Below are positions 20,671-31,193 of a DNA stretch of 32,000 nucleotides, piece by piece (the first letter of the stretch is position 1; each line of letters begins with the position of its first letter). The notes under the pieces are model-generated. The model worked only from the letters and a program-made list of their open reading frames with translations. It made no database searches and was not told the origin of the DNA. This DNA is from Microcystis aeruginosa NIES-843 (GTDB taxonomy: Bacteria > Cyanobacteriota > Cyanobacteriia > Cyanobacteriales > Microcystaceae). The DNA is taken from assembly GCF_000010625.1 (NCBI RefSeq), contig NC_010296.1, forward strand, positions 4,440,001-4,472,000. The letters are read 5' to 3'. The position numbers and the translations under genes were made by a program.

Positions 20671-21244
20671 TCAAGGACAATAATATAGTTTAAGAGTCAT
20701 AATTAGAAGCAAAGCACTCATTAAAAACATGATTAACCTAGAATTCACGGAAGAAGAAAAGAACTCACTGTCTTAGGAAAGATTTCATCATCCCCATCCC
20801 CGGGTTCAACTGAAGATGGAAGTTCTCTGGTTAAAGAGCCAAAAGATACCGCACAAAAAAATTTGTCAGTTAGCAGGAATCTCGCCAAATACCTTATTAA
20901 CCTATCTTCGAGATTATGAAGAAGGCGGAATAGAAAAATTAAAAGAAATCAACTTCTATCGCCCTAAAAGTGAATTAGAGTCTCAAAAAGAAACGCTCAA
21001 AAAATACTTCGATAAAAATCCACCAGCCACAATAAATGAAGCTGTATATAGGATAGAAGAATTGACGGGAATAAAACGAAGTCCTACCCAAGTGAGAAAA
21101 TTTTTAAAATCAATGGGAATGAAATGTTTAAAAGTAGGTTCTCTTCCTTCTAAAGCTGACCGGGATGAACAAGAGGAATACAAAGAAAAAAAGCTAGAAC
21201 CCAGACTAAATGAGGCTAAAGAAGGAAAAAGGGCTGTTTTTTTT

Positions 21245-21431
21245 GGTTCTTCGTTACTTGGTATGGTTCGATAGGGTGGCATAAATCGACTAAATCCTTA
21301 TCTGGCAAAAGATTTAATTGATTAGTTCGCTCTAGATCAAAAACAATTGACAAAAATCGCTAAATGCCTTTCTCTATAAGGGTTCCATCCCTTATAACCC
21401 TCGTCCATTGCATAACACAAACCGAAGAGCC
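21245..21431 (+). mobile_element. MITE family B, copy 2
   Basis: GGTTCTTCGTTACTTGGTATGGTTCG...CAAACCGAAGAGCC, 187 bp. It is flanked by an 8-bp duplication TTTTTTTT (21237-21244 and 21432-21439). Confidence 0.8.
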
Positions 21432-21508
21432 TTTTTTTTGTTGATGCCGCTCACTTCGTCATGGGAGCATTTCTCGGTTTTGTTTGGTGTTTTGAGAGAC
21501 TTTTTGTT

Positions 21509-21599
21509 AATACCAAATTTCTAAATCCATGACAGACATCCACGCTCGAATGCTTGCCAAGCCTGTATTCGTTGTGACGCGAATAAAGAAAAATGGTAT
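21509..21599. mobile_element. 91-nt miniature insertion with short inverted ends
   Basis: It interrupts ...CFERLFV|KSPSGRK... of the transposase and shifts the frame by +1. Its ends are ATACCAAATTT ... AAAAATGGTAT, which are imperfect inverted repeats. Confidence 0.45.
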
Positions 21600-22064
21600 A
21601 AGTCACCGAGCGGGCGTAAACGCTTCAATGTTTTAGGAGCATTAAATGCAATAACTCATGAAGTTATTCTGGTTACGAATGACACTTATATTACAGCAAC
21701 TCAAGTCTGTGAACTCCGGTCAAAAATAGCTGCTTTAGGACTAATGATTCCCATCACTCTCGTATTAGATAATGCCCGCTATCAGAAATGTAAAATTGTT
21801 AAAAAATTGGCTCTTTCTTTGTCAATAGAGCTACTCTATCTACCGTCTTATTCGCCTAATCTAAATTTAATTGAAAGGCTGTGGAAATTTGTCAAAAAGA
21901 AATGTTTATATGGTAAATATTATGAAAACTTTTCTGACTTTTCTTCAGCCATTTATGAATGTCTGAATGATGCCAATCTGAAACATAAAAAAGAACTGTA
22001 TTCCTTGCTGACTCTCCGATTTCAGAAGTTTAATAAATCTCAGATTATGAACGTCTAAAGTATA

Positions 22065-22360
22065 GTCTCCCTTTGATTCTTTTAATTATTGTGGTCGGGG
22101 AATAACTAGGGTCTGATTCCAAAAATAAATGAATATGATCTGGCATTATTTCTAATGCGTTCTCGCGTAGCGAGCGCGTTCTCGCGTAGCGAGCGCGTTG
22201 CGACCAACCTCCAGTTATTTTCTTTGCACAGGTCAAAAATAATCGACTGCGCTCTTAACTTAATGTCCCCTTTTAATACCGCTTTTCTCCGTTTTGGACA
22301 CCAGACAAAGTGATAGTTAAGTAGTGTTACCGAATGAGGATTTCTTCTATAATCTTCCAT
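22065..22360 (-). pseudogene. tnpA: IS200/IS605-family Y1 (HUH) transposase TnpA, truncated and frameshifted
   Basis: MEDYRRNPHSVTLLNYHFVWCPKRRKAVLKGDIKLRAQSIIFDLCKENNWRLV is followed by a 43-nt repeat insertion, then ALEIMPDHIHLFLESDPSYSPTTIIKRIKG. The HUH motif (HIH) is present. The C-terminal third, which holds the catalytic Tyr, is missing where the IS630-like element begins. Confidence 0.75.
22159..22201. repeat. REP-like hairpin repeat, two tandem units, inserted in tnpA
   Basis: GTTCTCGCGTAGCGAGCGC GTTCTCGCGTAGCGAGCGC GTTGC. Each unit holds the palindrome CTCGC-GTA-GCGAG. The 43 nt break the tnpA frame between ...NNWRLV and ALEIMPDH... Confidence 0.7.
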
Positions 22361-22417
22361 CTACCCTTGACAAATAGTGTATTTCCAACATATCCTATAT
22401 ACAGGAGGTAAGTCAAG

Positions 22418-23934
22418 ATGTACGGAGTTCAAGAAGTTCTCATCCATACAGACAGCGAGATAAGGGCTGTCTTAGAGTTTGTCTGTGAAGAAGCTAACAA
22501 GCTGGCTAATTGTGGTATTTATTATTGTCGGCAAATGCTTTTTAAGGCAGGGCGATATATCGGTAAATATGACCTTGATTCTCAGTTGAAAAATAACCCT
22601 CATTTTCGAGCCATGCGGTCATGTTGCGCTCAACAATTGCTACATGATGTTGCTGAATCTTTTTCTTCCTATAAAGGGCTTTTAGGTCTTTGGAATAAAG
22701 GGCAATTACCTAATAAGCCTAGACCACCTAAATATCGAAAGAAAGGGGGGATGGCAGTAGTAACCTATACGGCAAGATATGTGAAGTTAACCGAAAAAGG
22801 GTTAAGGTTTTCGTTGGGGGATCAGGTAAAAGCTTGGTTCGGGATTGATAGTTTTTATCTGCCAATGCCGTCTAATTTGAGGTTTGAAGACATTAAAGAG
22901 TTTCGGATCGTTCCTAGAAATCTTAGTTTTTATCTTGAGTGTGTTTATAAGCAACCCGATCAAGAGAAAGTTAAGCCTAATAACACTGTACTAGGAATAG
23001 ATCACGGATTGGGTAACTGGTTAACCTGCGTTTCTAACACGGGAAAGTCTTTTATCTTTGACGGAAAAAAGGCTAAGTCTCAAAATCAATGGCATAACAA
23101 GCGAGTTGCTCAAATTAAGACTGGTAAGCCGCCGGGTTACTGGGATGATGAATTAGCTAAAATAACCGAAAGGCGTAACCGACAGATGAGAGACGCTACC
23201 AATAAAGCTGCTCGTTTTATTATCAATTGGTGTCTCGGCAATGACATTTATACTGTCGTTTTTGGAGGGAATCAGCGACAAAAAGACTCGATTGAGTTAG
23301 GAAAGAAAGTTAATCAGGAATTTGTTAGTATTCCCACAGCGAAGCTTAAAAATCGCATTTGTCAATTGTGTGAAAAGTACGGGATTAAATTCGTTGAGAC
23401 TGAGGAAAGCTACACCTCAAAGGCTTCTTTTTTAGATGGTGATTCGCTACCTAAATTCGGTGAGAAACCCGGTTCTTCGTTACTTGGTATGGTTCAATAG
23501 GGGGGCATAAATCGACTAAATCCTTATCTGGCAAGAGACTTAATTGATTAGTTCGCTCTAGATCGAAAACAATTGACATAAATCCCCGAATGTCTTTCTA
23601 TATAAGAGTTTCATTCCTTGTAACCCTGTCCGTTGCATAAGACAAACCGAAGAACCAGAAACCCGAAGGGTGGCAGTCATCAGGTAAAAGAATTAAAAGA
23701 GGTTTGTTTAAAGCTTTTAGTGGTCAATTAATTAATGCTGATTGCAACGGTGCGGCCAATATCATTAAAAAAGTAGCCACACAGCTAGGGGTTTCTCTAG
23801 ATAAGGTGGGTAGGGCATCTTTGACAGTGCCACAACGATATAAATTGGATAGCCTTTCTAAAATAGATCGTAATCGAATAGAAGCGCGGTTTCAACCCGC
23901 TTCTATTCACCGATTAGAATCCCCGTCTTTTTAA
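22418..23934 (+). pseudogene. tnpB: IS605-type TnpB (OrfB) RNA-guided nuclease homologue, split by MITE B
   Basis: RuvC-like motifs are GIDHGLGNW, VETEESYTSKAS and NADCNGAANI. Removing 23471-23664 restores ...LPKFGEKP|EGWQSSGKRIKRGLFKAFSGQLINADCNGAANI... It is divergent from tnpA, which is the IS605 arrangement. Confidence 0.8.
23471..23656 (+). mobile_element. MITE family B, copy 3
   Basis: GGTTCTTCGTTACTTGGTATGGTTCA...CAAACCGAAGAACC, 186 bp. An 8-bp duplication AGAAACCC lies at 23463-23470 and 23657-23664. Confidence 0.85.
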
Positions 23935-25516: not shown

Positions 25517-25600
25517 GCAATGAGGAAATCCAGTCAAACAGAAACAAGGTTTTATCCTTTTGTGTTCGGTTAACTGTAGTCTTGTTGAGAATTAGAGAAC

Positions 25601-25897
25601 TCAGATATTACTGGAAAAAAATACTTTCCAAGCAGCCGTAATAATGGCACTTCCCAAAAGGATGATTAATGTCCAGACCTGATTTTTTTGGGTTCCCTCT
25701 ACTGATCTGAGCCGATTGTCGATGCCTTCAATTTTCCCGTCTAACACTTTAATATCCCCTTTGAGATCGGCTATTCCTATTTCTACTTTTGTCAAGCGCT
25801 CATCAATCTTATCGAATTTTTGACTAACTTCCTTGATACTGTCTTTAATTTCTTTAAGGACGACATCCAGGGAATAAGTGACAGTTTCGTTAGACAT
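25601..25897 (-). CDS. Tail-anchored coiled-coil protein, paralogue A (98 aa), XhlA-like architecture
   Basis: MSNETVTYSL... has a heptad-like KIDERLTKVEIGIADLKGDIKVLDGKIEGIDNRLRSVEG segment and the C-terminal TM VWTLIILLGSAIITAAWKVFF. Confidence 0.65.
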   Translation of the reverse strand: MSNETVTYSLDVVLKEIKDSIKEVSQKFDKIDERLTKVEIGIADLKGDIKVLDGKIEGIDNRLRSVEGTQKNQVWTLIILLGSAIITAAWKVFFSSNI

Positions 25898-26009
25898 TGG
25901 CTAAACTCCTATACTGCATCTGGTTGGATATAATTTTATCTTAGTCTAGGCTTTAAGAAAATTTTCTTTCAGGAGCGATTAACTGTAGTCTTGTTGAGAA
26001 TTAGAGAAC

Positions 26010-26318
26010 TCAGATATTACTGGAAAAAAATACTTTCCACCCAGCCGTAATAATGGCACTTCCCAAAAGGATAATTAATGTCCAGACCTGATTTTTTTGG
26101 GTTCCTTCCACTGATTTTAGCCGATTGTCGATGCCTTCGATTTTCTCGTCTAACACTTTAATATCACCTTTGAGATCAGTTACTCCTATTTCTAGTTTGG
26201 TTAACCGATCTTCTACCTTGTCAAATCTTTCGTTAACCCGCTTCTCAAGCGAGTCGATCTTTCCCTCAATCCTTGTGAGGACAGCTTCTAGGGAATAAGT
26301 AACAGTTTCGTTAGACAT
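26010..26318 (-). CDS. Tail-anchored coiled-coil protein, paralogue B (102 aa)
   Basis: Same N-terminus and C-terminal TM as the other paralogues. It carries 11 extra residues in the coiled-coil part relative to the 91-aa copies. Confidence 0.65.
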   Translation of the reverse strand: MSNETVTYSLEAVLTRIEGKIDSLEKRVNERFDKVEDRLTKLEIGVTDLKGDIKVLDEKIEGIDNRLKSVEGTQKNQVWTLIILLGSAIITAGWKVFFSSNI

Positions 26319-26431
26319 TTGGTAAACTCCTATACTGCATCCGGTTGGATATAATTTTATCTTAAGTCTAGGCTTTAAGAAAATTTTCTTTCAGGAGCGG
26401 TTAACTGTAGTCTTGTTGAGAATTAGAAAGA

Positions 26432-26707
26432 TCAGATATTACTGGAAAAAAATACTTTCCATCCGGCCGTAAAAATGGCACTCCCCAAAAGGATAATTAA
26501 TGTCCAGACCTGATTTTTTTGGGTTCCCTCTACCGATATTAGCCGATTGTCGATGCCTTCGATTTTCTCGTCTAACACTTTAATATCCCCTTTGAGATCG
26601 GTTAATCCTATTTCTACTTTTGTCAAGCGCTCATCAATCTTATCGATCTTTCCCTCAATCCTTGTGAGGACAGCTTCTAGGGAATAAGTAACAGTTTCGT
26701 TAGACAT
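26432..26707 (-). CDS. Tail-anchored coiled-coil protein, paralogue C (91 aa)
   Basis: The protein is identical to paralogue D. It has its own RBS. Confidence 0.65.
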   Translation of the reverse strand: MSNETVTYSLEAVLTRIEGKIDKIDERLTKVEIGLTDLKGDIKVLDEKIEGIDNRLISVEGTQKNQVWTLIILLGSAIFTAGWKVFFSSNI

Positions 26708-26820
26708 TGGCTAAACTCCTATACTGCATCCGGTTGGATATAATTTTATCTTAAGTCTAGGCTTTAAGAAAATTTTCTTTCAGGAGCGGTTAACTGTAGT
26801 CTTGTTGAGAATTAGAAAGA

Positions 26821-27096
26821 TCAGATATTACTGGAAAAAAATACTTTCCATCCGGCCGTAAAAATGGCACTCCCCAAAAGGATAATTAATGTCCAGACCT
26901 GATTTTTTTGGGTTCCCTCTACCGATATTAGCCGATTGTCGATGCCTTCGATTTTCTCGTCTAACACTTTAATATCCCCTTTGAGATCGGTTAATCCTAT
27001 TTCTACTTTTGTCAAGCGCTCATCAATCTTATCGATCTTTCCCTCAATCCTGGTTAGGACAGCTTCTAGGGAATAAGTAACAGTTTCGTTAGACAT
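26821..27096 (-). CDS. Tail-anchored coiled-coil protein, paralogue D (91 aa)
   Basis: The protein is identical to paralogue C. In the stretches I compared by eye, the DNA differs at two synonymous positions (CTC ACA in C versus CTA ACC in D, in VLTR). Confidence 0.65.
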   Translation of the reverse strand: MSNETVTYSLEAVLTRIEGKIDKIDERLTKVEIGLTDLKGDIKVLDEKIEGIDNRLISVEGTQKNQVWTLIILLGSAIFTAGWKVFFSSNI

Positions 27097-27446
27097 TGGC
27101 TAAACTCCTATACTGCATCTGGTTGGATATAATTTTATCTTAAGTCTAGGCTTTTTGGCATTCCTTACCCCACAGTTAACTTCACTTCTGTCCAACCACT
27201 GAGATAGTGTTAGGTGAAAACTTCGCTACTTTCTTGTCACTGATTAGCGGTTACTGTTCATTCTCTGCGAAAAAACCCTAACCCCTAACACCGATAACCC
27301 TAACCCCAAATTTTTTCGGGAACTTCCTAACATCCCATTCATCTTAAAGCCTAGATTCCGCCTGGAAAAAGGAGGAAATCCAGAGGAGTTTCCGGCTTTT
27401 TTCCTAGCCCTCTCGGTTTTCTTTTGGTTTGACACTCCCATCGCAC

Positions 27447-28822
27447 TCATGCGAGGGATTCTTCGTTCACAGGGAGATGCCTTGCAAAAGCAGTGCCTTT
27501 ACTTGGTCTTACTCTCCCTCCAGAAGCAGTAGCGGTATGCCCTACCGCCAAAATTCGTAAACCTTCATCCCGAATATTCTTAGCGGCATTGATGTCTCTA
27601 TCGTGGTTTTCTCCACACTTAGGACATTGCCAACTACGAATATCTAAACTCAAACTATCAACAGGATTTAAACAGTTACTACAAGTCTTAGAGCTAGGAA
27701 AGAATCTATCTACTTCTATATAGGGCTTGCTGAATAAATCTAAAAACCTTTTTGGGTAATACTTTCAGACTTTTTGTCAATCAAAAAGTACCAGTTCTGG
27801 AAGCGATCGGGGTAAAATTCAGGTACTTTTTCTCTGAAAATTAGGTAATTGACCAGATGAGAATCGGTAAAAACCTACACCCCACACCCCACACCCCACA
27901 CCCCACACCCTGTCCCTACGAAAAACTTTTTCAGCAGACCCTATATAGATTTTTCCTTCCCATTCAGCCTTGTATTTTAACATAGTACAGAATTGACCCC
28001 AACCAGCATCACTAATTGATTTTGCTAGTTTAGGGTTTTTGACCATGTTTCTGACTGCCAGATTTTCCACCACTATGACTTGGTTTTCGTCAACTAATTT
28101 ACGACTTAGTTTGTGCAGAAAATCTTCACGACAACGAACGATTTTAGAGTTAACTTTAGCAACTTTAACTCTAGCTTTATTTCGATTCTTAGAGCCTTTT
28201 TGCTGGCGGCTTAGTTTCTTTTGTCTCCTCGCTAATCTTTGTTCGTACTTACGATAGTATTGAGGATTCCCGTGTTTAGTCCCATCTGATGTAATAGCAA
28301 AATGGGTTAGTCCAACATCTATCCCGACAGCTTTTCCTTCTGATGATTTTTGGGGTAAATCCTTGCCATCATCATAGAGACAAGATGCGAAATATTCTCC
28401 TGATGGATTAACTGAAACCGTAACAGACTTTAAGTCTCCCTCTGGTTGCCGTGAAACTTGGCAATAGACTTCACCAATTTTAGGTAATACCAAAACATCA
28501 TCTTTTAACTTACAGTGTTGAGGAAATCTAATCGACTGCCTATTTTGCTTTTTCTTGAAGTTAGGATATTTAGCTCTACCTTCAAAAAAGTTAAGGAAAG
28601 CACTAGAAAGATTTAAAGCAGCTTGTTGTAATACCTGCGACGGTGCTTCGCTTAACCACTCATGCTCTTTTTTTAAGGAAGGCAGCAGCTTAATTATTTC
28701 GTCTCTGCTTAATCCTTTTCCAGTTTGCTTGTAAGTTTCGGATGTTAAGTTTAGAGCGTAATTGTAAAACCATCTAGCACAGCCAAACGACTTGGCAAGC
28801 AAAACTGATTGCTCACTGGTCG
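27447..28822 (-). pseudogene. tnpB: TnpB (IS605 OrfB-type), codons 15 to end, interrupted by MITE A
   Basis: [25 protein letters not shown]...[10 protein letters not shown]...[11 protein letters not shown]...[10 protein letters not shown] is followed by the MITE (27721-27943). The frame then continues EVDRFFPSSKTCSNCLNPVDSLSLDIRSWQCPKCGENHDRDINAAKNI, which holds the zinc finger and the third RuvC motif. Confidence 0.8.
27721..27943 (+). mobile_element. MITE family A, copy 3
   Basis: TAGGGCTTGCTGAATAAATC ... (CACCCCACACCC)n ... TTTTTCAGCAGACCCTA. It splits tnpB between ...GKIYI and EVDRFF... Short direct duplications flank it (ATATA). Confidence 0.8.
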
Positions 28823-31193
28823 GTTGCCCTAAGCCAGATATGTCACCATTCTGGCTCGGCTTCAAAACGGTGCGTGAGACTTTCACCTCACACCGCTCCT
28901 CTCTCCAATGGCTCTTTGTCATGAGTACCAGTTTTATCTAATGCAGTTTTAGAATCGTGGCAATGTCGATGGAGTAACTGTTTATTATCTCGATTGTTTT
29001 TACCCCCTTTTGATTTAGGGATAATGTGGTCGGTTTCGAGTATGTCTCCATCTTGGAAATATAGTCCACAATATGCACAACGTCCTTGCTGTCTTTTGAG
29101 TAGAACAGCTTTTTCTGGTGGCATTTCTGGGTGTTTACCCATTCGACTACTCCAATATATTAAATCCCCATCATAGGGACTTTTATCCCCTTTCACCTTG
29201 ACGTATCTTACGATTTTTGTATCTAGGTGTCTTGCCAGTTTGAAGGGGTTTTTACCTTCTCTTGTGCTGAATACCCAATTATCTTTTCCCTCAGTATGCC
29301 AATATTTACGCATTATCCAAGTTTTGTTTTTCATTGGGTGTCGTCTGTCTGCCCATCTTTTGAGTTTTTCAAAGAAGTAGTAATCACAATCTGTGAATGT
29401 TTTTGAGCTTACTACTGATGAATAGTAATTGCTCCATCCTCTAATGATTGGATTGAGTCGTTTGATTAAGGCATCCTGTGGGGATGACTTCTGACTATTT
29501 ACTACTTCTCCCAATTTCTTTAGATGGGACTTGACTTTTTCAGCACTAGGCTTGATTAGGTTTTTAAAACCTAGTTTGACTCCTTTACTACTTTTTGCCC
29601 CGTGATGTTTTCCGACTTGGTATTGCCTGATGTTGAATCCGAGAAAATCAAATCCAACGTAATCATCATAAGTTTCAAGAGTATGGGATATTCTTGTTTT
29701 ACTAGGCTTCAGTTCTAGCCCCATTTCTGCTAACCATTGTTTAATGATTTCCTGACATTCCTTTATTACCTTTAAATCTTCGTGCAGGATAACAAAATCA
29801 TCTGCATATCTGATTAGGGTTAAGGCTTGTTCATTTTTGGATTTATTGCCTTTCAGAGTTCTTGCATATTGCTTAACTCTTTCTTCCATGCCGTGTAAGG
29901 CTATGTTAGCTAGTAAAGGGGAGATTACACCTCCCTGTGGTGTGCCTTCATTGGTAGGGAATAGGTTTTTTCCATCCATGACTCCACTCTTTAGCCATGC
30001 TTTGATTTGTTGTCTTAGCTTGGGGTAAGTTTGAAGTTTTGTCAGTAGTTTCTGGTGGTTTATTTGATCAAAGCATTTACTTATGTCCGCATCTAGCACA
30101 TATTTGGGCTTTTTGTTGATGCTTATGTAGATTGCTCCGATTGCGTCATGGGCTGAACGTGCTGGTCTAAATCCATAACTGTTAGGTTCAAATTTTGCTT
30201 CCCATTCGGGTTCTAATGCCAGTTTTACTAAGGCTTGTAATGCCCGTTCGTACATGGTGGGAATCCCTAGAGGTCGCTTTTCATCCGTATTGGGTTTTGG
30301 TATCCATACTCTACGAGTTGCTTTTGATTTATTGCCAAGTTTTAGATTATTGACAAGTGCCATTCTTTGTTTGGGTGTTAAGGATTTTATCCCATCTACC
30401 CCGGCGGTTTTCTTGCCTTGATTATCTTGGCTAACCCGTCTGACGGCTATCAGTTTGGCGTACCAGCTTTTTAGGAGTAGCCTTTGTAATTTGTGGACTA
30501 ATTTGACATCACCCCGTTGACTGGCTTTGAATATTCTTTTTGGTAACTTAAAAACACATCTTTCAGCTTTTCGCCAGTTGATGTCCTTCCATTCATACAT
30601 CGGTTTTGTTGCCGTGTTCATAACTTTTTCATTACTACTTAAGACCATTCATTCCATTGAACAGTGTGTACGTCAGCATATCCTTATCTATTACAGATAG
30701 GCGTTGGCTTCTTACACAATCCTTTCCTATATGAGTCTTACGCTGGTTACTACTTAGATTTCGACCTATCTAAGAGATTCATAAGGATTACTTCGTTCCC
30801 AACCACCGTATTCCTAACTTTAGTGTCTTCCTCTATACCGAAGCTGTGTAGATGATTCTGGTTGAACTCTATCTTTTCCCAGTACGTTAGCTTGTTAACA
30901 TTTTGTTGCCAGCCAATAATCTGTGTAGGCTAGGTTTCAGTGACGATACTTCTGACGGAAGTTCTTATTCATACACATAGTTAGATGCTAGACAGGTTTT
31001 GATGTCAGATTCATCTTTACTGCCATTTAACCCCGCTTTTCCCCTTTTGATGACCGTTCTCCACAGGAAGGGGTTATGCTGTCACTCCATCATCTGGAGG
31101 GAAGGACTTTCACCTTCACGGTTATTGAGTTATCAAGGTTCTCAACCTTGTCCTACCCACGTCTGTTAGACTTTTGGTAGGAACGAGTCGCAC
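28823..31193 (-). mobile_element. Group II intron (2371 nt) with intron-encoded protein
   Basis: The minus-strand 5' end is GTGCGAC at 31193. Domain V is GAGCGGTGTGAGGTGAAAGTCTCACGCACCGTTT at 28865-28898, followed by a domain VI-like hairpin. The 3' end ...GGGCAAC is at 28823. The flanking exons join in frame to give a TnpB N-terminus. Confidence 0.85.
28888..30648 (-). CDS. Group II intron reverse transcriptase/maturase with C-terminal HNH endonuclease domain
   Basis: RT motifs are [43 protein letters not shown] and RYADDFVIL. The maturase X region has RGWSNYY. The HNH region is CAYCGLYF...[27 protein letters not shown]. The likely start is ATG 30621 ([11 protein letters not shown]). Confidence 0.9.

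What the first reader, a model, noticed from the sequence alone, without database searches (positions are those of the whole stretch)
25570..27153. Four-gene tandem array of tail-anchored coiled-coil proteins whose lengths differ by 7 and 11 residues
Whole units (ORF, RBS and upstream region) are repeated head-to-tail with periods of 409, 422 and 389 bp. The proteins share MSNETVTYSL, an (I/V)-x-x-(L/I)-rich coiled-coil segment and a C-terminal TM (VWTLIILLGSAI...). This architecture resembles XhlA-type small membrane proteins. The lengths are 91, 91, 102 and 98 aa, so they differ by one heptad or one hendecad. That preserves coiled-coil register and suggests selection on rod length. Copies C and D encode identical proteins. 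In the stretches I compared by eye they differ at two synonymous sites, which points to recent duplication or gene conversion under purifying selection. The function is unknown. The array lies between mnmE and a dead IS.
Basis: partly seen in the sequence, partly recalled or inferred. Interest (0 to 1): 0.65.

Follow-up and report, generated by a model that had tools for sequence, protein, structure and literature searches.

The report
Tandem tail-anchored coiled-coil stalk genes
Four head-to-tail copies of a small membrane-anchored rod protein in a Microcystis genome are real and conserved, and belong to an uncharacterised family of at least 20 genes per genome whose rod lengths change in steps of 7 and 11 amino acids.

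Summary
Four minus-strand ORFs of 91, 91, 102 and 98 aa form a 389-bp-period tandem array at 25567-27154. The two 91-aa copies encode identical proteins and differ at two synonymous sites.

The organism is Microcystis. The array is syntenic, convergent with mnmE, in 19 fetched related loci, with one to four copies. Purifying selection is strong (pN/pS 0.06-0.14).

The proteins have:
- a conserved, disordered N-terminal peptide (MSNETVTYS);
- one continuous amphipathic helix of about 60 residues with 3.5-residue periodicity;
- a C-terminal transmembrane helix with a 4-residue tail, which makes them tail-anchored.

The array is one locus of a cyanobacterial family seen in Microcystis, Pannus, Crocosphaera, Gloeothece and Pleurocapsales. 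Two complete Microcystis genomes each carry at least 20 paralogues at eight or more loci, in arrays of up to seven genes. Length varies through 33-bp (hendecad) and 21-bp (heptad) repeats, and one subclass runs 91, 102, 113 ... 179 aa.

XhlA (PF10779) is the nearest known family, but the match is sub-threshold. The XhlA motif and the lysis-gene context are both absent.

The function is unknown. My best inference is a membrane-anchored oligomeric stalk that holds a conserved N-terminal head at graded distances from the membrane.

The parts
25567..27154 (-). Whole tandem array: 3.9 units of about 389-422 bp, each unit made of leader, CDS and trailer.
   Evidence: TRF period 389, 89% matches, score 2145. 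Sequence read on the minus strand.
26821..27096 (-). Copy 1 (promoter-proximal), 91 aa: no hendecad module, 7 continuous heptads, then the transmembrane helix.
   Evidence: Hydrophobic periodicity 3.51 residues per turn. pN/pS 0.09 among 9 orthologous CDSs.
26432..26707 (-). Copy 2, 91 aa. The protein is identical to copy 1, with 2 synonymous differences. This is the recent extra copy.
   Evidence: Absent from most related strains, which carry 91-102-98. Present in L004.
26010..26318 (-). Copy 3, 102 aa: copy 1 plus one 11-residue (hendecad) module, SLEKRVNERFD.
   Evidence: The AF2 model has residues 1-9 disordered, helix 10-69, a kink, then helix 72-99, with mean pLDDT 72. Best Pfam hit is XhlA at 34.4 bits against a cut-off of 34.7.
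25601..25897 (-). Copy 4, 98 aa: a variant head (LDVVLKEIKDSIKEVSQKFD) that is one heptad longer than copy 1.
   Evidence: pN/pS 0.14 among 7 orthologous CDSs.
27097..27161 (-). Leader of copy 1: AGGAG ribosome-binding site at 27109-27105, TAAAAT -10-like hexamer at 27137-27132, and a unit-specific -35-like ATGCCA.
   Evidence: Promoter-like site found by consensus scan only. Sequence.
26708..26820 (-). Inter-unit spacer and leader of copy 2: trailer, AT palindrome AAGAAAATTTTCTT, TAAAAT at 26748-26743, and AGGAG.
   Evidence: Function is inferred, not shown.
26319..26431 (-). Inter-unit spacer and leader of copy 3, with the same elements (TAAAAT at 26359-26354).
25898..26009 (-). Inter-unit spacer and leader of copy 4, with the same elements (TAAAAT at 25938-25933).

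Best explanation
The array encodes four paralogues of a cyanobacteria-specific family that is greatly expanded in Microcystis. The proteins are small and tail-anchored.

Each protein has three parts: a 9-residue unstructured, highly conserved N-terminal peptide; one uninterrupted amphipathic helix; and a C-terminal transmembrane helix followed by only 4-8 residues.

Inferred mechanism:
1. There is no signal peptide, and the only hydrophobic segment is at the extreme C-terminus. The proteins would therefore insert post-translationally, with the rod in the cytoplasm.
2. The rods would self-associate through the conserved membrane-proximal heptads into parallel coiled-coil bundles, possibly trimers.
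3. This would place the conserved N-terminal head at a distance from the membrane set by the number of 11-residue and 7-residue modules. That distance is roughly 9-10 nm for the window's copies and up to about 23 nm for the longest relatives.

On this reading they act as membrane-anchored spacers or tethers of graded length.

Length diversity arises from slippage or unequal recombination among 33-bp and 21-bp intragenic repeats, and among tandem gene copies. Only indels that preserve the coiled-coil register survive.

Shown: gene reality, purifying selection, architecture, family size, indel spectrum, synteny and copy-number variation.
Inferred: topology, oligomerisation and the spacer/tether role.
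For: - Real genes: pN/pS is 0.06-0.14 with pS 0.12-0.17 among orthologues.
- Synteny: convergent with mnmE in 19 fetched related loci, with 1-4 copies in varying combinations.
- Architecture: AF2 gives one helix at 10-69 plus a transmembrane helix at 72-99 for the 102-aa copy. A 144-aa relative has a single 95-residue helix with pLDDT up to 92.
- Periodicity: the hydrophobic moment peaks at 3.51-3.53 residues per turn in the window copies and at exactly 3.667 (11/3) in the hendecad repeats. Only 27% of repeat residues are hydrophobic, forming a narrow stripe at positions 4, 7 and 11.
- Tail anchor: the transmembrane segment is the last roughly 22 residues. This fits the definition of tail-anchored proteins, and cyanobacterial Get3d binds such proteins in vitro (PMC10248533).
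- Modular family: a constant head, 0-9 hendecads, heptad modules and four alternative transmembrane modules.
- Indel spectrum: 4, 7, 11, 14, 15, 18, 22 ....
- Length series: 91 + 11n up to 179 aa.
- Family size: at least 20 paralogues at eight or more loci in each of two complete genomes.
- No partner gene: neighbours differ from locus to locus.
- Weak PDB profile hits are mostly proteins I know as trimeric coiled coils, such as TRAF7, P22 gp26, coronavirus S2 HR1, GP2, reovirus sigma1 and YadA.
Against: - There is no experimental datum on expression, localisation, topology, oligomeric state or binding partner.
- No paper on the family was found.
- The oligomer state rests on weak, composition-prone matches.
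- AF2 models are monomers of moderate confidence (pLDDT 66-72).
- The indel spectrum is also what repeat slippage alone would give, so graded length may have no functional meaning.
- The nearest sequence family, XhlA, acts in membrane permeabilisation rather than tethering.
Confidence: 0.4

Rival explanations
1. XhlA-type function. The proteins are distant cellular homologues of the PBSX and SPP1 XhlA (gp24.1) holin-like proteins. They would oligomerise in the membrane to permeabilise it, for autolysis, programmed cell death, vesicle release or export of a partner.
For: - PF10779 is the best or near-best Pfam hit for all family classes tested: 20-34 bits, with E down to 2.5e-8.
- Many relatives carry a precomputed PF10779 assignment.
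- hhalign of the family profile against a Bacillus XhlA profile gives 64% probability and E 6.7e-5 over 69 columns, covering rod plus transmembrane helix in the same order.
- The size and architecture match SPP1 gp24.1.
- XhlA-like proteins of SPP1 and PBSX are reported to act as holins (PMC8878798).
Against: - All four window proteins fall below the Pfam gathering score.
- Aligned identity is 16%, and these are compositionally biased coiled-coil and transmembrane sequences.
- The invariant XhlA motif LERTSDRHDQQI...ENTTWIKR is absent.
- No holin, endolysin or prophage genes lie next to any locus examined.
- tblastn found no homologue in 50,697 phage records, and only one borderline case turned up among 2.9 million viral contigs.
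- Twenty or more constitutive-looking copies with a strongly conserved N-terminal peptide and variable rod length are hard to reconcile with a lethal holin.
Confidence: 0.2
2. Lipid-surface or granule binding. The 11-residue repeats would form apolipoprotein-, perilipin- or phasin-like amphipathic helices that lie on a lipid droplet, PHB granule or membrane surface.
For: - Sub-threshold hits to Apolipoprotein (PF01442, E 5e-8 for a 135-aa member), Phasin and PhaR_Bmeg (TIGR02132, 31 bits).
- NCBI names some members 'PhaR'.
- From general knowledge, 11-mer periodicity is typical of such proteins.
Against: - The scores are far below the cut-offs: 31 against 148 bits, and 33 against 90 bits.
- The apolar stripe is only 3 of 11 residues, and 35% of residues are charged. 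That fits a coiled-coil core rather than a broad lipid-binding face.
- The window's own copies have zero or one hendecad and are heptad-periodic.
- A bona fide transmembrane anchor is present.
Confidence: 0.08
3. Stress or stationary-phase tail-anchored adaptor, analogous to E. coli ElaB/YqjD/YgaM. These are small tail-anchored proteins whose cytoplasmic helix binds ribosomes or protects membranes.
For: The overall design is the same: about 100 aa, an N-terminal cytoplasmic helix, a C-terminal transmembrane helix, several paralogues per genome and chromosomal housekeeping neighbourhoods. The ElaB/YqjD biology is recalled from my own knowledge and was not tested here.
Against: DUF883 does not appear among the Pfam hits listed for the window proteins at E up to 10. 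Nothing in that family resembles the modular hendecad expansion or the conserved MSNETVTYSL head.
Confidence: 0.1
4. Assembly artefact, or decaying and selfish repeat DNA with no selected protein product.
For: Near-identical 389-bp units are prone to mis-assembly. A few relatives have frameshifted or truncated C-termini, such as P0052, P0062, P0099 and the L025 48-aa fragment.
Against: - An independent contig has the same 4-copy structure with no gaps.
- The two near-identical units carry 5 distinguishing bases.
- pN/pS is 0.06-0.14.
- The locus is syntenic across the genus.
- 122 intact family members were found, against only a handful of broken ones.
Confidence: 0.02

Closest known systems
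XhlA family (Pfam PF10779): Bacillus PBSX XhlA and SPP1 gp24.1, holin-like lysis proteins
   Same: - About 80-100 aa, with an N-terminal helical or coiled segment, one C-terminal transmembrane helix and a very short tail.
- Best Pfam match for the window proteins.
- Profile-profile alignment covers rod plus transmembrane helix collinearly.
   Different: - The score is below the Pfam cut-off and identity is 16%.
- The XhlA signature LERTSDRHDQQI/ENTTWIKR is missing.
- The genes are not in prophages or lysis cassettes.
- There are at least 20 chromosomal copies in tandem arrays.
- The rod length is modular and the N-terminal head is conserved. Neither feature is seen in the Bacillus XhlA alignment.
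E. coli tail-anchored paralogues ElaB/YqjD/YgaM (DUF883), recalled from my own knowledge
   Same: Small chromosomal tail-anchored proteins with a cytoplasmic helical domain, present as several paralogues.
   Different: No sequence similarity was detected. That family has no repeat-number variation and no tandem arrays.
Length-setting coiled-coil or repeat proteins: Braun's lipoprotein Lpp as a periplasmic ruler, GvpC 33-residue repeats on cyanobacterial gas vesicles, and tape-measure proteins (from my own knowledge)
   Same: Helical proteins whose length changes in quantised repeat units. In those systems length has a structural read-out. A 33-bp unit here (11 residues) is about 1.6 nm of helix.
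   Different: No homology. Here the rod is anchored by a C-terminal transmembrane helix, and many lengths coexist in one genome. No structural read-out is known.
Archaeal S-layer stalk SlaB and the stalks of trimeric autotransporter adhesins
   Same: A membrane-anchored coiled-coil stalk, with mixed heptad and hendecad periodicity in the autotransporter stalks. Weak profile hits were found: NF040788 SlaB, YadA and SadA constructs, and a 1551-aa adhesin, P0126.
   Different: Those stalks are exported by Sec or type V secretion and are extracellular. The Microcystis proteins have no signal peptide and no passenger or head domain beyond 9-20 residues.
Eukaryotic tail-anchored coiled-coil proteins: SNAREs and transmembrane golgins (from my own knowledge)
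   Same: A cytoplasmic heptad-repeat rod placed directly before a C-terminal transmembrane helix. In golgins the N-terminal tip is the functional capture site.
   Different: No homology. There is no polar 'zero layer': all a/d positions from L10 to V59 are apolar (my reading of the sequence). The organism is prokaryotic.

Membership tests
XhlA (PF10779) | Whole-protein score at or above the Pfam gathering cut-off (34.7 bits). | tested here: not met
   The scores are 34.4 (102 aa), 23.5 (both 91-aa copies) and 20.3 (98 aa) bits. Other family classes score 22-32 bits. Some longer relatives carry a precomputed PF10779.15 assignment.
XhlA (PF10779) | Architecture: about 80-100 aa, an N-terminal helical segment, a single C-terminal transmembrane helix and a short tail. 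| tested here: met
   AF2 models, hydropathy, and comparison with SPP1 gp24.1.
XhlA (PF10779) | Conserved core motif of the Bacillus family (R..LER.SD.HDQQI ... NTTWIKR). | tested here: not met
   These are invariant columns in the XhlA alignment A4. They are absent from alignments A1, A2 and A3.
XhlA (PF10779) | Profile-profile homology to bona fide XhlA proteins. | tested here: inconclusive
   hhalign of A3 against A4 gives probability 63.7%, E 6.7e-5, 69 columns and 16% identity. A2 against A4 aligns only the transmembrane helix, at 78%. A3 against the single gp24.1 sequence gives 0.8%.
XhlA (PF10779) | Location in a prophage or phage lysis cassette next to a holin (XhlB) and an endolysin. 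| tested here: not met
   Neighbours are alr, mnmE, IS elements, an M50 peptidase, an ABC transporter, kdp and others. There was no phage hit, and only one viral contig, at its edge.
Tail-anchored membrane proteins (class) | A single transmembrane domain within about 30 residues of the C-terminus and no N-terminal signal sequence. | tested here: met
   The definition comes from PMC10248533. The only hydrophobic segment starts at residue 67-69 of the 91-aa copy, and the N-terminus MSNETVTYS is polar.
Tail-anchored membrane proteins (class) | Post-translational insertion with N-in, C-out topology. | not testable with these tools
   This needs protease protection or reporter fusions.
Coiled coil (heptad or hendecad) | Uninterrupted a/d (3.5) or a/d/h (3.67) apolar periodicity over a long helix. 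| tested here: met
   The moment maximum is at 3.51-3.53 residues per turn for the window copies and 3.667 for the hendecad repeats. AF2 predicts continuous helices.
Coiled coil (heptad or hendecad) | Actual self-association and oligomer number. | not testable with these tools
   The only support is weak PDB profile hits, mostly to proteins I know as trimeric coiled coils. No multimer modelling was available.
DUF4164 (PF13747), the name NCBI gives many members | Score at or above the Pfam cut-off (27.2 bits). | tested here: not met
   18.5 bits for the 102-aa copy. The family is not listed for the other three copies.
PhaR / phasin (TIGR02132, PF05597), the name NCBI gives some members | Score at or above the curated cut-off. 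| tested here: not met
   TIGR02132 scores 31.3 bits against 148.4. PF05597 scores 16.1 against 28.8.
ElaB/YqjD/YgaM (DUF883) | A Pfam DUF883 match. | tested here: not met
   It is not among the hits listed at E up to 10. Every hit was shown for three of the copies; for the 102-aa copy only the best 25 of 39 families were displayed.

The most novel reading that the evidence does not exclude
Microcystis and its relatives would encode a genomic 'ruler set'. This would be twenty or more tail-anchored coiled-coil stalks whose lengths are quantised in steps of about 1.0 nm (heptad) and about 1.6 nm (hendecad), spanning roughly 9 to 23 nm. Each stalk would present the same N-terminal capture peptide. 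Four alternative transmembrane modules might target different membranes. The set would fix or tune the spacing between membranes (thylakoid-thylakoid or thylakoid-plasma membrane), or between a membrane and a cytoplasmic body. Repeat slippage would provide rapid, heritable adjustment.
Probability: 0.12. Interest if true: 0.8.

Novelty: new variant of a known kind. Interest (0 to 1): 0.5.

Why it matters
Microcystis is the main toxic bloom-forming freshwater cyanobacterium, yet a family of at least 20 genes per genome under strong purifying selection has no described function. Databases give it contradictory names, including PhaR, phosphomannomutase, DUF4164 and FlaC.

The family is a natural series of tail-anchored coiled coils. 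Rod length varies in register-preserving quanta, while the head and the membrane-proximal part stay fixed. If length has a functional read-out, this would be a prokaryotic example of genetically encoded spacing control at a cytoplasmic membrane face.

If it has none, the family is still useful in three ways:
- as a clean case of how repeat slippage and coiled-coil register constraints shape protein evolution;
- as a VNTR-like marker for strain typing;
- as a candidate client set for the cyanobacterial Get3d pathway.

Tried and rejected
- NCBIfam, PHROGs and PADLOC scans gave only weak, composition-driven coiled-coil hits with nothing near a cut-off.
- tblastn against 50,697 phage genomes found no match.
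- Two IMG/VR scans found one contig, with the gene at the contig edge beside a tape-measure-like ORF. The flanks are not shared with other loci, so I judged it a host/prophage border.
- The PDB sequence profile search gave only weak coiled-coil hits.
- Foldseek of the AF2 model gave nothing (E 8), as expected for a single helix.
- hhalign against a single XhlA sequence was uninformative, so I built an XhlA profile.
- I looked for an RNA-level element behind the conserved start. Only the ribosome-binding site and codons 2-4 are conserved at synonymous sites, while codons 5-6 vary freely, so I rejected this.
- Upstream and downstream regions of dispersed paralogues are unrelated apart from the ribosome-binding site. 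The units are therefore not a mobile cassette.
- No intrinsic terminator was predicted in the array.
- Literature searches on XhlA plus cyanobacteria, Microcystis plus DUF4164, locus tags and tail-anchored cyanobacterial proteins found nothing on this family.
- The AncM primary paper was not held.
- The listing of cluster members on distant relatives gave no organism names.
Full report
**1. Observation**

The window carries four ORFs on the minus strand: 26821-27096 (91 aa), 26432-26707 (91 aa), 26010-26318 (102 aa) and 25601-25897 (98 aa). Tandem Repeats Finder sees one array at 25567-27154, with period 389, 3.9 copies, 89% matches and score 2145.

Each unit contains a trailer, an AT-rich palindrome, a TAAAAT -10-like hexamer, an AGGAG ribosome-binding site 8 nt before the ATG, and the CDS.

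The two 91-aa copies encode identical proteins. Their CDSs differ at two synonymous third positions, and their non-coding parts differ at three bases. The stated periods (409, 422, 389), protein lengths, shared N-terminus and C-terminal hydrophobic segment are all correct.

An independent metagenome contig (L004) is 99.88% identical to the window over 4258 ungapped bases and has the same four copies.

**2. Organism, synteny and selection**

All close relatives come from Microcystis. The array lies convergent with mnmE in 19 fetched loci from Microcystis isolate genomes, MAGs and metagenome contigs. It usually sits downstream of alr, with or without an IS605-family tnpB in between.

Array content varies: 91-102-98 is the most common, and 91-91-102-98, 91-102-105, 84-91-102-105, 84-91-105-102, 91-102-98-105, 102-105, 91-105 and 98 alone also occur. 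The window's second 91-aa copy is therefore a recent strain-level duplication.

Orthologues of each length class show pS of 0.12-0.17 but pN/pS of only 0.06-0.14. Paralogues within the window show pN/pS of 0.13-0.32. These are selected protein-coding genes. Broken copies exist in relatives but are rare.

**3. Protein anatomy**

AlphaFold2 with a 40-sequence alignment predicts the following for the 102-aa copy: residues 1-9 unstructured, one helix at 10-69, a two-residue kink, and a helix at 72-99 (mean pLDDT 72). A 144-aa relative has a single 95-residue helix, with pLDDT up to 92 in the repeat region, followed by the transmembrane helix.

In the window copies every a/d position from L10 to V59 is apolar. 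The hydrophobic moment peaks at 3.51-3.53 residues per turn.

The only hydrophobic segment is the last 22 or so residues, followed by four residues (SSNI). There is no signal peptide. This meets the definition of a tail-anchored protein, and cyanobacterial Get3d has been shown to bind tail-anchored proteins in vitro (PMC10248533). Topology (N-terminus in the cytoplasm) and oligomerisation are inferred, not shown.

**4. The array is one locus of a large modular family**

A pattern-plus-tblastn scan of one genome per species found 154 relatives. The 79 loci kept are almost all Microcystis, plus Pannus and Crocosphaera. Profile searches add Gloeothece, Hydrococcus, Xenococcaceae and Pleurocapsales. 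They also find 672 clusters at 50% identity with E up to 0.001.

Two complete Microcystis genomes each have at least 20 paralogues at eight or more loci. Tandem arrays reach seven genes (L077).

Members share several features:
- a constant head, MSNETVTYSLE(A/S)VL(TR/KE)I...;
- a conserved membrane-proximal heptad region, RLTK(L/V)E(I/V)GQ...;
- one of four alternative transmembrane modules.

They differ in the number of 11-residue modules (NQKFDSLQKDV or EKIDSLEKRID, 0-9 copies) and 7-residue modules (ERFDKVD, KGDIKVL).

One subclass has lengths of 91, 102, 113, 124, 135, 146, 157, 168 and 179 aa. In 2944 pairwise alignments within transmembrane classes, gaps have almost only register-compatible lengths: 4, 7, 11, 14, 15, 18, 22, 29, 33, 40, 44 and so on. 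Lengths of 1, 2, 5, 6, 9, 10, 12 and 13 are nearly absent. The pairs are not phylogenetically independent.

At DNA level the modules are 33-bp and 21-bp tandem repeats that are 76-100% identical. This gives an obvious slippage or recombination mechanism.

The hendecad region has exact 11/3 periodicity with a three-residue apolar stripe. That is typical of coiled-coil cores and not of lipid-surface helices.

**5. Comparison with known families**

XhlA (PF10779) is the best Pfam match, but every window protein is below the gathering score (34.4, 23.5, 23.5 and 20.3 bits against 34.7).

I built a Bacillus XhlA profile from homologues of SPP1 gp24.1. hhalign against the cyanobacterial profile gives 64% probability, E 6.7e-5, 69 collinear columns and 16% identity. 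This is suggestive but not decisive for sequences made of coiled coil plus a transmembrane helix. The invariant XhlA motif (LERTSDRHDQQI...NTTWIKR) is absent.

Gene context also argues against an XhlA-type role:
- no locus sits in a lysis cassette or prophage;
- no phage genome encodes a relative;
- only one viral contig carries one, at its edge.

The names found in databases (DUF4164, PhaR, phosphomannomutase, FlaC and others) are not supported by scores. PADLOC gave nothing. PDB profile hits are weak and mostly to proteins I know as trimeric coiled coils. No paper on the family was found.

**6. Mechanism**

The best-supported reading (confidence about 0.4) is a membrane-anchored, self-associating stalk. 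It would hold a conserved N-terminal peptide at a distance from the cytoplasmic face of a membrane set by the module count. At 0.15 nm per residue, that is about 9-10 nm for the window's copies and up to about 23 nm for the family.

Repeat slippage would generate the length variants, and selection would remove out-of-register ones.

The rivals are:
- an XhlA-like membrane-permeabilising role (about 0.2);
- an ElaB/YqjD-like stress adaptor (about 0.1);
- apolipoprotein- or phasin-like surface binding (about 0.08);
- an artefact or decaying repeat (about 0.02).

Whether length itself is selected remains open.

**7. Verdict**

It was too narrow, because the array is a typical locus of a large family that appears undescribed in the searched literature. 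It was also slightly too confident about XhlA.

Novelty: a new variant of a known kind, namely small tail-anchored coiled-coil membrane proteins.

Interest is moderate (0.5). The family is striking and cleanly documented, and it occurs in an ecologically important organism. It has no functional anchor yet.

Noticed in passing
window 28829-30648 (-): A group II intron. The ORF at 28888-30648 carries RVT_N, RVT_1, GIIM and HNH domains. Rfam places domain V/VI at 28829-28901. The intron's 3' end overlaps the nominal start of the adjacent tnpB ORF, so it appears to have inserted at or into the 5' end of the IS.
   Followed up: partly
window 27447-28922 (-), microsatellite 27877-27910: The IS605-family tnpB is split. 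The N-terminal 367-aa ORF (HTH_OrfB_IS605 plus OrfB_IS605) ends in an odd Gly/Val/Trp-rich tail encoded by an (ACACCCC)x4.9 repeat. The TNB zinc-ribbon part is a separate 68-aa fragment. Related strains have an intact 376-393-aa tnpB at this position (L002, L011) or no IS at all (L003, L005, L015).
   Followed up: partly
window 20816-23500 (+): There are more mobile-element remains upstream of mnmE: an HTH fragment (20816-21274), a DDE_3 fragment (21744-22058) and a second OrfB_IS605 ORF (22418-23500). The array therefore sits in an IS-rich stretch.
   Followed up: no
family-wide; window copies end at 25601, 26010, 26432 and 26821: Nearly all transmembrane classes and distant relatives end in -(G/P)NP at the C-terminus (FFSGNP, FGFFPNP, LLGGNP, VFFPNP, IVGNP). 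The window's subclass ends in -SSNI instead. A conserved extracytoplasmic C-terminal dipeptide shared across otherwise different transmembrane modules is unexplained.
   Followed up: no
L103 1396-1731 (IMG/VR UViG_3300049811_000649): The only viral-contig relative is a class-iv family member 1.4 kb from the contig end. It is convergent with a 1552-aa tape-measure-like ORF and next to a rhodanese-like gene. Its flanks are not shared with the gene's loci in Microcystis genomes. It is probably a prophage/host border, but this is the one possible phage link.
   Followed up: partly
window 25983-26003, 26392-26412, 26781-26801 (-): Every inter-unit junction contains about 21 nt (ctcctgaaAGAAAATTTTCTt, with a perfect AT palindrome) that is absent from both outer flanks of the array. 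The repeat unit was therefore not generated simply by duplicating a single gene with the present flanks. The stretch could be an operator or a weak terminator.
   Followed up: no
window 26125-26298, 26547-26687, 26936-27076 (+): Antisense ORFs of 46-57 aa recur inside copies 1 to 3. They are mirror images of the repeat and I did not test them for coding potential.
   Followed up: no
L053 6001-8161; L077 3413-6333; L040 3882-6309: Other Microcystis loci hold arrays of 5-7 paralogues. In L053 the lengths rise monotonically along the array (92, 114, 128, 132, 135 aa). In L077, genes with two different transmembrane modules are interleaved in one array, which implies module shuffling by recombination.
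   Followed up: partly
L082 (contig labelled Crocinitomicaceae MAG): A 2.5-kb contig binned to a Bacteroidota MAG carries four typical Microcystis-type family genes. This is most likely a binning contaminant from Microcystis rather than horizontal transfer.
   Followed up: no
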